Notes under the pieces: model-generated
The model's input: the letters and a program-made list of their open reading frames with translations, nothing else
Databases searched by the model: none
What the model was told of the DNA's origin: nothing
Part shown: positions 8,813 through 60,510 of the stretch, piece after piece
How the letters are laid out: each line of letters begins with the position of its first letter
Position numbering within the stretch: the stretch's first letter is position 1
Translations under genes and position numbers: made by a program
Assembly (NCBI GenBank): GCA_964016885.1
Contig: OZ024753.1
Span: 38,812,001 to 38,876,000, forward strand
Direction: 5' to 3'
From: Eledone cirrhosa
Taxonomy: Eukaryota
Length of the DNA: 64,000 bases

Positions 8813-9498
8813 TAAATTGAAACAAAATGAAAACGAAATTTCATTTCTCACTCTTAGTATGGCACTTACTTAAATGTAAGTATGCATGTATACGTACATA
8901 CATATATGTATACAGACGTACAGTAGCATGCACACATATATATATATATACATATATATATACATATGCATACAGGTACACATACATATATGCACGTATC
9001 AGTTTAGCGGCGCTTATTATAACGTCGCTTTGTTCGTTTGTAAACAAACTGAACAGCCTGAATTTATGCCATACGGTGTTAAGGCAACCACGTCACCTTT
9101 TTGTTCAACACTGACACAGGAACGATGTACTAGTTTCAAGCTTGTTAGCTATCATCAGCACCGTATACCCATCTGCCAGATAGTTGAACGTTCGAAAGTA
9201 TATACTTTCCTTATGAAAATTAACGGCTGAGCAGCCTAATTTGCATATTGAGTGTGTTAAATCGGTCAGGCATACCGAAAACGATAAATTGAAACAAAAT
9301 GAAAACGAAATTTCATTTCTCACTCTTAGTATGGCACTTACTTAAATGTAAGTATGCATGTATACGTACATACATATATGTATACAGACGTACAGTAGCA
9401 TGCACATATATATATATATATACATATATATATACATATATATATACATATGCATACAGGTACACATACATATATGCACGTATCAGTTTAGCGACGCT

Positions 9499-23365: not shown

Positions 23366-23581
23366 ATTCCGGGTTGAATCGGAGGTAACCACAGTAAGTA
23401 AGGTACTCAATACATTACAGAGTATAAAAGTTTTAATATAGATGAGATTCTACAGGACTAGAACTGTTTCATTCTTTAGAAATCATCAGGAATCTGTGTA
23501 TCAAATTATTTTTTGATACCCAGATTCCTGATGATTTCTAAAGAATGAAACAGTTCTAGTCCTGTAGAATCTCATCTATAT
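23366..23581. mobile_element. Family B fold-back element with two intact hammerheads (23446-23494 minus; 23523-23571 plus)
   Basis: AGATTC-CTGATGA-TTTC-TAAA-GAAT-GAAA-CAG-TTCTAGTC-CTG-TA/GAATCT on both arms; flanked by (TA)n. Confidence 0.85.
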
Positions 23582-25147: not shown

Positions 25148-25338
25148 TATTCCGGGTTGAATCGGAGGTAACGACAGTAAGTAAGGTACTCATTACATAG
25201 CAGAGTATAAAAGTTTTAATATAGATGAGATTCTACAGCACTAGAACTGTTTCATTCATTAGAAATCATCAGGAATCCTGATGATTTCTAAAGAATCAAA
25301 CAGTTCTAGTCCTGTAGAATCTCATCTATATTAAAACT
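25148..25338. mobile_element. Family B fold-back; intact HHR 25229-25277 (minus); plus-arm HHR has GAAA->CAAA
   Basis: Homologous to 23366-23581; palindrome centred at ~25275. Confidence 0.82.
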
Positions 25339-56177: not shown

Positions 56178-58014
56178 CATGGTGCCACAACATAGGATAA
56201 GCTATGCTCTGTTTAAAAATATCGGGCTTGTCTTTATGGTTTTCTAAATTTATATGAACATTTTCATATGGCCTAACTGAGAGTTTTTTTTTATCTTCTT
56301 CTTGTATCATTTTCCTTATTTGAAAAGCAAGTGCATAAGTATCTTTTCTTTACGTAAGCGAGTTGATAGATTGTTCTACGAATTGTGGTTAAGGCGTGGA
56401 ATTGGAGAAAATAGAGAAAATGTTCTGCTACAAATTCCTGCATGTTTCGATATATCATAAATAAGAACATTTAAAAAAACTATATTTCTATCTTTATTTA
56501 ACATTGCCTGACTGAGAGAACCAAAATAGTATCCACTGTTCTGGAGTATGCTATATTGTTAGAAGGAGAAAGGGAATCCGATAGAAACTGAGACATCCAG
56601 TCTAGAGAAAATGTTGATCTATTTGTGAGGAAAGCAAAAAATTTGTTACCAAAGCTAGACGTTGTTCAAAGAGATAAATGATATAATAAGTGATAGAGTG
56701 GTATAGTAATTTGGTTTATAAAGCGGCGAATTGGCAGAGTCGTTGGAACATCCGATAGAATGCTTTTCGATATTCGTTTCGATTTTCTGCTCTTTGAGTT
56801 TTAATCCCGCCGAGGTCAACTTTGCCTTTCATTGAATCCAGGTCGATAAAAATGTAGCAGTCTCGTTCTGGGGACGATTCTCCCTCTATATCTCTTTCTC
56901 ACTTCCATTCTTTCATTCTCAATCCTTCCCAGGAAGAACTCTGCAATATTCAGGTCTAGACAGGAGATAGGCTCCGCCAGGTTTTAAAAGATGACCTAGA
57001 TACATCGTATGCCAATGCGGCGTTCCTTCGACTCGCCTAGAAGTTACGGTTCCTTACATACGCGTCCATAGACACAATATAGTTTATACAATATGTCTAA
57101 TATAATCTGCCGTCTATAGCAGCTGGTTTAGGGTGGGTAGAGTATAGAACAAAGAAGCAGGAAACGTTAAGGTCAAAGTGGGTGGAATGACATAACCAAG
57201 ATTTCACAACTGACATCAGTTTCCAGTCTACCTGTTACATTTCATCAGATCTTCATTATATTTCTGCTAAGTCAGCGAATCAAGAGAAACGCCGCTTGAA
57301 CCTTGGATTAAATACCTCGTTTTTTATTTCCCCGGCTCACTGCACATTAAGTTGAAGTCCCGCCGAGCTCAACTTTTTACCTTTCAACCTCCCCCCCCCT
57401 CCTCCTCCTCCACCACCTCCTCCTCCTCCTTCTTCTTCTCCTCCTCTTCCTCGGAAGAAACCTGCTCTGTTCACACCTGGAAAAAGAGGGGCTTTACCAC
57501 GTTTATCAATGTCCATAACAGTCCCTGTCCTACATGTTCTCATAGGGTATACCTACGTTGAGTTACCTGAAAAAGTACATGTTTGTATGTGTATATATAT
57601 GTGTTTGTGTATGTATATATGTTGTTTGTGTTTGCATGAGTGTGTGTTAGGGCGTGTGTATGCATAAGTGTATGTCTGTTTGCATTTATCTGTGCGTTTG
57701 TCTTTATGTATATGTGTTTGTTTGTGTGTATGTATTGGTGTGAATGTTTTTCGTATATTTAAGTTTGTCTCTGCATTTATGTTTATGTATGTATGTATGC
57801 GTTTATGTACGTGTGTGTGTCTGTATATGTACATGTGTGTCTGTATATGTATGTGTATGTGTGATTACGTTTGTGTGTTTATGTATATTTAGATTTATCT
57901 GTGTATGTTTATGTGTTTATATATGTATGTGAGTGGCAGTATGTTTATGTTTATTTGGATTTGTGTGTGCGTTTTTGTGTTTATATATATATATATATGT
58001 CCATATATATATAA

Positions 58015-58093
<79 letters not shown>

Positions 58094-58215
58094 AATATAG
58101 ACATAGAATATTCGAAAATACTCTGTATGTTTATAATAAACATTTTGAAGACCTAATCGCTATAGAATAGAATACGTCACGTATTACAATTAGATTCTCG
58201 ATAAAAGCAAGGGAA

Positions 58216-58258
58216 GTAATCTACGCGTTTCATTCTTGTTAGAATTCATCAGGACTAC
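58216..58258 (-). ncRNA. Type I hammerhead ribozyme, array copy 1
   Basis: Minus strand: GTAGTC-CTGATGA-ATTC-TAACAA-GAAT-GAAA-CGCG-TA/GATTAC. Complete core, 6-bp stem I, 4-bp stem II, palindromic stem III (ACGCGT). Predicted GUA cleavage between 58222 and 58221. Confidence 0.93.
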
Positions 58259-58525
58259 ATATCCAGTGCTTTTATCGAGAATGACACAGCTAGAGACTTA
58301 TAGAATACTTAGCTGTGTACAGGAACTGGTTTGAAAGAGCGGTTGCCGGTCCGGCAGAAATTAGAAATTGGAATAAATGCTCTGAAATAGCGATATATAT
58401 GTGAATATAGACATAGAATATTCGAAAATACTCTGTATGTTTATAATAAACATTTTGAAGACCTAATCGCTATAGAATAGAATACGTCACGTATTACAAT
58501 TAGATTCTCGATAAAAGCAAGGGAA

Positions 58526-58568
58526 GTAATCTACGCGTTTCATTCTTGTTAGAATTCATCAGGACTAC
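58526..58568 (-). ncRNA. Type I hammerhead ribozyme, array copy 2
   Basis: Same sequence as copy 1, offset +310. Confidence 0.93.
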
Positions 58569-58835
58569 ATATCCAGTGCTTTTATCGAGAATGACACAGC
58601 TAGAGACTTATAGAATACTTAGCTGTGTACAGGAACTGGTTTGAAAGAGCGGTTGCCGGTCCGGCAGAAATTAGAAATTGGAATAAATGCTCTGAAATAG
58701 CGATATATATGTGAATATAGACATAGAATATTCGAAAATACTCTGTATGTTTATAATAAACATTTTGAAGACCTAATCGCTATAGAATAGAATACGTCAC
58801 GTATTACAATTAGATTCTCGATAAAAGCAAGGGAA

Positions 58836-58878
58836 GTAATCTACGCGTTTCATTCTTGTTAGAATTCATCAGGACTAC
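58836..58878 (-). ncRNA. Type I hammerhead ribozyme, array copy 3
   Basis: Same sequence as copy 1, offset +620. Confidence 0.93.
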
Positions 58879-59145
58879 ATATCCAGTGCTTTTATCGAGA
58901 ATGACACAGCTAGAGACTTATAGAATACTTAGCTGTGTACAGGAACTGGTTTGAAAGAGCGGTTGCCGGTCCGGCAGAAATTAGAAATTGGAATAAATGC
59001 TCTGAAATAGCGATATATATGTGAATATAGACATAGAATATTCGAAAATACTCTGTATGTTTATAATAAACATTTTGAAGACCTAATCGCTATAGAATAG
59101 AATACGTCACGTATTACAATTAGATTCTCGATAAAAGCAAGGGAA

Positions 59146-59188
59146 GTAATCTACGCGTTTCATTCTTGTTAGAATTCATCAGGACTAC
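59146..59188 (-). ncRNA. Type I hammerhead ribozyme, array copy 4
   Basis: Same sequence as copy 1, offset +930. Confidence 0.93.
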
Positions 59189-59455
59189 ATATCCAGTGCT
59201 TTTATCGAGAATGACACAGCTAGAGACTTATAGAATACTTAGCTGTGTACAGGAACTGGTTTGAAAGAGCGGTTGCCGGTCCGGCAGAAATTAGAAATTG
59301 GAATAAATGCTCTGAAATAGCGATATATATGTGAATATAGACATAGAATATTCGAAAATACTCTGTATGTTTATAATAAACATTTTGAAGACCTAATCGC
59401 TATAGAATAGAATACGTCACGTATTACAATTAGATTCTCGATAAAAGCAAGGGAA

Positions 59456-59498
59456 GTAATCTACGCGTTTCATTCTTGTTAGAATTCATCAGGACTAC
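59456..59498 (-). ncRNA. Type I hammerhead ribozyme, array copy 5
   Basis: Same sequence as copy 1, offset +1240. Confidence 0.93.
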
Positions 59499-59886
59499 AT
59501 ATCCAGTGCTTTTATCGAGAATGACACAGCTAGAGACTTATAGAATACTTAGCTGTGTACAGGAACTGGTTTGAAAGAGCGGTTGCCGGTCCGGCAGAAA
59601 TTAGAAATTGGAATAAATGCTCTGAAATAGCGATATATATGTGAATATAGACATAGAATATTCGAAAATACTCTGTATGTTTATAATAAACATTTTGAAG
59701 ACCTAATCGCTATAGAATAGAATACGTCACGTATTACAATTAGATTCTCGATAAAAGCAAGGGAAGTAATCTACGCGTTTCATTCTTGTTTATTATAAAC
59801 ATACAGAGTATTTTCGAATATTCTATGTCTATATTCACATATATATCGCTATTTCAGAGCATTTATTCCAATATATATATAAGTTT

Positions 59887-60510
<624 letters not shown>

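What the first reader, a model, noticed from the sequence alone, without database searches (positions are those of the whole stretch)
58093..59790. 310-bp tandem array with a complete hammerhead ribozyme in every unit: candidate retrozyme / circular RNA element
Seen: 5.5 apparently identical 310-bp units. Each full unit reads, on the minus strand, ATTCTCGATAAAAGCA-CTGGATAT-GTAGTC-CTGATGA-ATTC-TAACAA-GAAT-GAAA-CGCG-TA/GATTAC-TTCCCT-TGCTTTTATCGAGAAT. This is a canonical CUGAUGA/GAAA core, a 6-bp stem I, an internal loop and a further perfect 16-bp helix. Established: animal non-LTR retrozymes are tandem repeats of roughly 150-400 bp with type I HHRs; their transcripts self-cleave into monomers that circularise and are thought to be mobilised by Penelope-like elements. 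Inference: this is a young, probably active retrozyme producing a 310-nt non-coding circRNA. I cannot check whether this family is already described.
Basis: partly seen in the sequence, partly recalled or inferred. Interest (0 to 1): 0.95.

Follow-up and report, generated by a model that had tools for sequence, protein, structure and literature searches.

The report
Two-armed hammerhead retrozyme, Penelope-type insertion
This is one copy of a very abundant, young, protein-less 310-base repeat carrying a predicted self-cutting RNA motif; its copies sit in AT microsatellites as two back-to-back arrays ending at two fixed points, a footprint suggesting that a Penelope-type retrotransposon enzyme likely copies them from a small, probably circular, RNA.

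Summary
Observation confirmed. 58093-59790 is 5.48 identical 310-bp units, with five complete type I hammerheads on the minus strand. The family is large: 18,897 exact 21-mer hits and 1,048 exact end junctions. Of 43 loci, 32 are two arms joined head-to-head. In 29 of 30 resolved cases one arm ends near monomer position 165 and the other near 130, matching the Penelope 30-40-nt 'tail'. Units are uniform within a locus, both arms included, but differ between loci (20 haplotypes in 28 loci). Arms read seamlessly through the cut site. This fits Penelope-driven copying of one monomer, probably a circle. Related families (61-66% identical) keep the catalytic 3-8 pair, a self-complementary stem III and two hairpins beside the start sites. 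Not shown: cleavage, a circular RNA, the partner enzyme. It is a new member of the known animal non-LTR retrozymes; I found this insertion anatomy in no retrozyme paper. This scan noted what appears to be the same family before (e1-8671497, e1-8802758).

The parts
58093..59790 (-). Main arm: 5.48 identical 310-bp units. RNA sense is the minus strand. The outer (3') end is the 'short' end at monomer position m129 (m1 = first base after the predicted cut); the inner end is m292.
59787..59872 (+). Inverted second arm, m80-m165, ending at the 'long' end (35-nt Penelope-type tail included). It overlaps the main arm by a 4-bp microhomology at 59787-59790.
58194..58282 (-). Type I hammerhead of unit 1 with its 16-bp outer helix (arms 58267-58282 and 58194-58209), CUGAUGA 58252-58246, stem II 58245-58232, GAAAC, 2-bp palindromic stem III, GUA 58224-58222, predicted cut 58222/58221. 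Repeated at +310, +620, +930 and +1240.
58387..58473 (-). Conserved two-hairpin domain (m59-m145, closed by a 5-bp long-range helix) next to and overlapping the short end; likely the element recognised by the reverse transcriptase. Present once per unit.
   Evidence: function inferred
58367..58402 (-). The ~35-nt stretch between the two fixed 3' ends (m130-m165): equivalent of the Penelope 'tail'. Present once per unit.
   Evidence: tail definition from PMC8557442 and PMC11167929
58031..58091 (.). (TA)n microsatellite at the short end; likely insertion target
59873..59881 (.). Short (AT)n run at the long end, followed by a different hammerhead-type fold-back repeat

Best explanation
This is one insertion of a young, high-copy, non-coding 310-bp hammerhead repeat (an animal non-LTR retrozyme) that is likely copied into (AT)n microsatellites by the reverse transcriptase-endonuclease of a Penelope-like element, probably from a circular monomer RNA. 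Shown: the array, the hammerhead motif, the two-armed head-to-head layout, the two fixed outer ends, the (AT)n context and the per-locus uniformity. Inferred steps: (1) arrays are transcribed on the hammerhead strand; (2) neighbouring hammerheads pair through the palindromic stem III and cut out monomers, which are ligated to circles with the 16-bp helix holding the ends; (3) a Penelope-type protein binds the conserved hairpins and nicks both strands of an (AT)n tract; (4) each DNA end primes reverse transcription, one at about m165 and one at about m130; (5) each enzyme runs round the template a variable number of times; (6) the two cDNA 3' ends are joined through 1-5-nt microhomology.
For: Layout: 32 of 43 loci are two-armed and all 32 have 3' ends outward; 29 of 30 resolved loci have one long and one short end (p 3e-8); in the 16 loci taken in order along contig 1, 12 are two-armed and all 12 are long+short. 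These are the Penelope hallmarks (inverted copy, 30-40-bp tail at one end; PMC8557442). In vitro, a Penelope-like protein cuts and extends both strands, starting at two RNA sites that bound the tail (PMC11167929). Two separate priming events: the long-end arm is longer in 14 loci, the short-end arm in 13; inner ends are not mirror-symmetric (3 of 32 within 10 nt, 2.2 expected); junction overlap of 2 nt or more in 16 of 32 against 18% by chance, p 4e-5. Single-monomer template: 207 of 232 units equal their locus majority; mean 0.28 differences within loci against 4.0 between; 20 haplotypes in 28 loci; both arms agree in 14 of 16 loci while 3.4% of locus pairs agree. 307 crossings of the cut site show no locus with a mixed junction, and 1 of 64 inner ends lies at the cut (1.2 expected). 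Selection on the RNA: position 3-8 is C-G in 30 and U-A in 11 of 44 motifs, the other 3 being cut at junctions; stem III stays 67-100% self-complementary; the hairpins keep 98.3% pairing with 3 doubly changed pairs.
Against: No self-cleavage, transcript or circle was observed. No autonomous partner: 50 GIY-YIG loci and 55 loci of related repeats showed no ORF-bearing element sharing the start-site region. In print, only 1 of 9 predicted Xenopus retrozyme dimers cleaved in vitro (bioRxiv 2026.07.22.740005), and the anole Penelope hammerhead needed protein and was dispensable for insertion (PMC11167929). The motif lacks the usual G10.1-C11.1 pair and most sampled loci have U.U there. An uncleaved linear multimer from a uniform source array gives the same seamless arms. 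L126 changes haplotype twice within one arm and L128 has recurring variants, so template switching or DNA-level exchange also acts. The covariation controls do not correct for relatedness. 27 of the 43 loci were chosen for likeness to this copy.
Confidence: 0.7

Rival explanations
1. Same element and same Penelope-type enzyme, but the template is an uncleaved linear multimeric transcript of an existing array; the hammerhead and any circle play no part in copying.
For: Seamless read-through of the cut site and shared haplotypes in both arms are also expected. PMC11167929 found unprocessed RNA to be the dominant substrate in vitro. The hammerhead has a weak stem III and usually a U.U pair.
Against: Linear copying cannot fix a new variant across a whole array and can only shorten arrays, yet 20 uniform haplotypes occur in 28 loci and arrays reach about 24 units. 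0 of 3 single-unit variants are mirrored in the other arm (weak test). The catalytic core is conserved with compensation across related families.
Confidence: 0.17
2. Short two-armed Penelope-type insertions are lengthened afterwards at DNA level (slippage, unequal exchange, extrachromosomal DNA circles); the arrays are minisatellites born from pLTR-like ends.
For: This route is proposed in bioRxiv 2026.07.22.740005. L128 shows recurring variants and L126 and L035 are mosaics.
Against: Both arms of a locus are often multi-unit and share the haplotype; inner ends fall uniformly round the unit (KS p 0.57); copies are about 99% identical, which leaves little time; an arm shorter than one unit has nothing to slip on.
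Confidence: 0.08
3. The inverted arm comes from self-priming (fold-back) on one nascent strand, as proposed for rotifer Penelope elements.
For: PMC3846280 reads junction palindromes as self-priming; two loci (L116, L122) join through the 16-bp helix and three are near-symmetric.
Against: Neither arm is consistently the longer (14 vs 13), junctions are not enriched for symmetry, and single-unit variants are not mirrored.
Confidence: 0.05

Closest known systems
Animal non-LTR retrozymes (coral, mussel, axolotl; Cervera and de la Pena 2020, PMC7229834; Li, Clavereau and Pollet, bioRxiv 10.64898/2026.07.22.740005)
   Same: About 300-bp low-GC non-coding tandem unit, type I hammerhead in each unit, short palindromic helix III, dispersed multimers, Penelope-like elements in the same genome.
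   Different: Those papers show circRNA and cleavage (2020) or pLTR homology (2026). In the parts I read they do not describe two-armed head-to-head insertions, fixed long and short ends, (AT)n targeting or per-locus haplotype uniformity. Here no TSD can be read, RNA is untested and no pLTR parent was found.
Insertions of endonuclease-bearing Penelope-like elements (PMC8557442, PMC3846280, PMC11167929)
   Same: Inverted 5'-truncated copy joined head-to-head, 30-40-bp tail at one end, microsatellite targets, two reverse-transcription start sites, hammerhead upstream of the start sites.
   Different: No ORF; the unit is repeated many times in both arms; the tail is paired with a short end almost every time rather than being optional.
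Non-autonomous Chlamys elements such as MRC1 (PMC8557442, passage)
   Same: Non-autonomous Penelope-type elements with multi-copy head-to-tail insertions.
   Different: Green algae; described as lacking canonical hammerheads and as sharing 3' ends with known autonomous families.
L1 twin priming (recalled; PMC2837659 seen only in a search listing)
   Same: Two primers from the two target ends give an inversion joined by microhomology.
   Different: In L1 the second primer site is variable and the two segments do not overlap; here both sites are fixed 35 nt apart and both arms copy the same sequence repeatedly.

Membership tests
Animal non-LTR retrozyme | Tandem repeats of about 150-400 bp, GC under 45-50% | tested here: met
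   310-bp unit; GC 0.32 in 58001-60000
Animal non-LTR retrozyme | Type I hammerhead in at least two consecutive units | tested here: met
   Five complete motifs; HH9 E 0.003 but below gathering score; compensatory 3-8 pair in relatives
Animal non-LTR retrozyme | No protein coding | tested here: met
   Longest stop-to-stop frame inside the unit is 59 aa; no Penelope protein match in the window
Animal non-LTR retrozyme | No LTR, PBS or PPT | not tested
   No LTR-like layout is visible, but PBS and PPT were not searched
Animal non-LTR retrozyme | Dispersed, mobile arrays | tested here: met
   many contigs, 1,048 exact long-end junctions
Animal non-LTR retrozyme | Target-site duplication longer than 4 bp when present | tested here: inconclusive
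   Ends lie in (AT)n; several loci have the same compound microsatellite on both sides but no TSD can be delimited
Animal non-LTR retrozyme | Self-cleavage and accumulation of circular monomer RNA | not testable with these tools
   Needs bench work or RNA reads
Penelope-type insertion (non-autonomous) | Inverted 5'-truncated copy, head-to-head | tested here: met
   32 of 43 loci two-armed, 32 of 32 with 3' ends outward
Penelope-type insertion (non-autonomous) | 30-40-bp tail at one end | tested here: met
   Ends cluster at m165 (21) and m130/m139 (14/7); 29 of 30 long+short
Penelope-type insertion (non-autonomous) | Microsatellite or AT-rich target | tested here: met
   Every resolved outer end but one (L048) lies in or within 2 nt of (AT)n
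Penelope-type insertion (non-autonomous) | Sequence similarity to the pLTR of an autonomous element | tested here: inconclusive
   None in 50 of 150 scored (10,596 candidate) GIY-YIG loci; sampling is far from complete
Autonomous Penelope-like element | ORF with RT and GIY-YIG domains | tested here: not met

The most novel reading that the evidence does not exclude
These arrays are genomic fossils of twin-primed rolling-circle retrotransposition: a dimeric Penelope-type enzyme holds one 310-nt circular RNA by a conserved hairpin pair, primes both broken ends of an (AT)n tract at two sites 35 nt apart, and two reverse transcriptases chase each other round the same circle. That would explain the Penelope tail and inverted end, and be the first direct footprint of a circular RNA serving as insertion template.
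Probability: 0.45. Interest if true: 0.75.

Novelty: new member of a known kind. Interest (0 to 1): 0.55.

Why it matters
The 2020 retrozyme paper proposed that circRNAs are reverse-transcribed into tandem cDNA by LINEs or Penelope-like elements; the 2026 preprint supports Penelope by co-occurrence and pLTR phylogeny and says the mechanism is open. This family offers over a thousand near-identical insertions with mapped start sites (m130, m165), a candidate recognition structure and natural haplotype marks. Template form (circle or linear), the role of the ribozyme and two-ended priming thus become testable with a 310-nt RNA and the existing in vitro Penelope assay. It could also inform circular-RNA-templated gene insertion tools.

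Tried and rejected
Rfam at gathering score: nothing. Public runs: no RNA holder listed; not evidence on expression. Three runs under other organism labels hold the unit as one closed 340-base contig (310+30); run kind is unknown and a collapsed tandem array gives the same, so this was not used as evidence of a circle. Partner search: blastn and an nhmmer profile against 50 GIY-YIG loci hit only independent repeat insertions (L060, L064) and weak hammerhead matches; tblastn of 3 Penelope-type proteins against 30 sister-family loci printed no hit (output cut in the middle), and 8 proteins against 25 loci of a third family hit only the query's own locus. Short motifs were not found in the supplement of PMC8557442, but only its metadata file is held, not the consensus sequences. 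A 73% match of m226-305 to a neighbouring fold-back family was set aside as mostly hammerhead similarity. Sense and antisense monomers fold about equally well (z -4.2 and -3.9), so folding does not fix the strand; the hammerhead and tail polarity do. The A at position 10.1 first looked private to this locus but marks 3,750 units. The look-up of earlier findings by sequence returned nothing. L057 (88-bp fragment) was left out of the 43-locus counts. The host was not identified; earlier notes call it a probable octopus, which I did not test.

Full report
1. Observation. The stretch 58093-59790 is an exact tandem of a 310-bp unit, 5.48 copies without a mismatch. Five complete hammerhead cores lie on the minus strand. 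Stem I has 6 bp, stem II 4 bp, the triplet is GUA, and the predicted cut is 58222/58221. The 16-bp outer helix is perfect, and the 88-nt region folds with z -7.9. Rfam gives nothing at gathering score and Hammerhead_HH9 at 23 bits, E 0.003. The longest stop-to-stop frame inside the unit is 59 codons. Positions below are m1-m310, counted from the first base after the cut in RNA sense.

2. The array is followed by an inverted arm, 59787-59872 (m80-m165), that overlaps the array end by 4 bp. Both outer ends touch (AT)n. Stem III is 2 bp with the palindrome ACGCGU. PMC4209133 (passages) says such a helix III impedes monomer cleavage and allows a dimeric fold in tandem repeats.

3. The family. The own genome (3.0 Gb) has 18,897 exact matches of a 21-mer of the unit, control 0, and 1,048 exact long-end/(AT)n junctions, control 2. 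Short-read contigs of public runs carry the unit, two of them at very high depth, so the repeat is not an assembly artefact. I analysed 43 loci: 27 of the 28 best matches (the 88-bp fragment L057 left out, four refetched longer) and the first 16 loci along contig 1.

4. Insertion anatomy. 32 of 43 loci have two arms, and all 32 are head-to-head with 3' ends outward. Of the 11 single-armed loci, three run into N gaps and one runs off the fetched stretch. Outer ends cluster at m165 and at m130/m139. 27 two-armed loci were classed automatically as long+short; two more were resolved; one is long+long; two are unresolved. That gives 29 of 30, p 3e-8. In the unselected contig-1 set it is 12 of 12. 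Every resolved outer end but one lies in or within 2 nt of (AT)n. Inner ends are uniform round the unit (KS p 0.57; 1 of 64 at the cut site, 1.2 expected). Junctions overlap by 2 nt or more in 16 of 32, against 18% by chance; 7 junctions have gaps or inserts. PMC8557442 (passages) lists the inverted 5'-truncated copy, the 30-40-bp tail at one end and microsatellite bias as Penelope features. PMC11167929 (passages and second half of the main text) shows a Penelope-like protein cutting and extending both strands and starting at two RNA sites that bound the tail. The long-end arm is longer in 14 loci and the short-end arm in 13, and inner ends are not symmetric. This argues against fold-back copying (proposed in PMC3846280, passages) and for two priming events.

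5. Template. In 28 loci with two or more full units, 207 of 232 units equal the locus majority. Mean differences are 0.28 within loci and 4.0 between; there are 20 distinct haplotypes. Both arms share the majority in 14 of 16 loci, whereas 3.4% of locus pairs are identical. One exception is a tie caused by a single variant; the other, L126, switches haplotype. All 307 crossings of the cut site are uniform within their locus apart from one variant at m10. Fixing so many variants across whole arrays needs a routine passage through one monomer, which a circle read repeatedly gives most simply. It is not proof: an uncleaved multimer from a uniform array explains single loci, and L126, L035 and L128 show that switching or DNA-level exchange also occurs. 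The mirrored-variant test (0 of 3) is too small to decide.

6. Conservation. Sister families at 61-66% identity have the same ends. Among 44 distinct hammerhead contexts, the 3-8 pair is C-G in 30 and U-A in 11; the other three are cut at junctions. Stem III stays 67-100% self-complementary despite different loops. Next to the short end, two hairpins closed by a 5-bp long-range helix are kept in 19 sequences (of 23 representatives plus one added; junction-cut or shifted rows dropped): 98.3% of cells paired and three pairs changed on both sides; 0 of 500 shuffles reach the covariation score, but 113 of 500 reach the pair count. The rows are related, so this is support, not a probability. Against activity: pair 10.1-11.1 is A-U in this copy (3,750 units) and U.U in most sampled loci; only 1 of 9 Xenopus dimers cleaved in the 2026 preprint; and the anole hammerhead was dispensable for insertion in vitro.

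7. Partner. The genome has 10,596 GIY-YIG candidates and at least one long RT+GIY-YIG frame. None of 50 loci examined shares the start-site region as its own end. The partner is unnamed.

8. Comparison and novelty. The element meets the sequence definition of animal non-LTR retrozymes (PMC7229834: passages and Discussion; bioRxiv 10.64898/2026.07.22.740005: parts 1-3 of 5). The first leaves the mobilising enzyme as 'LINEs or PLEs'; 'inverted' and 'microsatellite' do not occur in its main text. Searches for retrozyme with octopus, hammerhead with cephalopod, retrozyme with head-to-head, inverted, microsatellite or twin priming, and non-autonomous Penelope with rolling circle listed no paper describing this family or this insertion layout for a retrozyme. 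The library lacks most subscription papers, and I did not see the supplements of the two retrozyme papers (including the model figure S9 of PMC7229834) or the consensus files of PMC8557442; these may bear on the novelty claim. This scan has noted what appears to be the same 310-bp family in this genome (e1-8671497, e1-8802758) and the same layout in other families and genomes. My reading was recorded before that look-up, and those notes are not independent support.

9. Verdict. A real, young retrozyme: a new member of a known class. Its value lies in the insertion footprint, which ties a protein-less hammerhead repeat to Penelope-type two-site priming and points to a monomeric, probably circular, template. 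Interest 0.55.

Noticed in passing
window 59882-60050; also 23463-23580 and 25246-25331: A different, very high-copy fold-back repeat with a hammerhead whose stem II is almost the same as this family's; the copy beside the array has a decayed core. The retrozyme sits in the AT run at its end.
   Followed up: partly
window 9083-9173 (-); L099 8700-9900: A third hammerhead family; in L099 it forms a tandem with hammerheads 511 bp apart whose unit contains an (AT)n tract.
   Followed up: no
L126 3092-7414: One arm changes haplotype twice, in register; one unit equals the haplotype of locus L032 and the inner units equal the other arm. Template switching between RNAs, later gene conversion or mis-assembly.
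   Followed up: partly
L128 903-8455: Single arm of about 24 units in which C193A recurs twice and C255T three times at irregular spacing.
   Followed up: no
L129-L158, L060, L121: Older sister families (313-322 bp, 61-66% identical; 5,421 hits of one 18-mer) with the same ends; several use a U3-A8 core and longer palindromic stem III loops.
   Followed up: yes
L160-L183: A more distant, older family sharing the start-site motif, with a U3-A8 core and a long palindromic stem III region.
   Followed up: partly
L089 3809-6622 (-), L090 3488-6019 (+): Penelope-type family with a 938-codon stop-to-stop frame (RVT_1 and GIY-YIG); its pLTR holds a U3-A8 minimal hammerhead with a palindromic 2-bp stem III and GUA triplet, but no similarity to this retrozyme's start-site region.
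   Followed up: partly
L110 2343-2520: Junction with three successive inversions, all using the same two breakpoints (m65 and m29).
   Followed up: no
L053/L127, L110, L120: 311-bp variants with one extra base in the 3' strand of stem I, uniform across each array.
   Followed up: no
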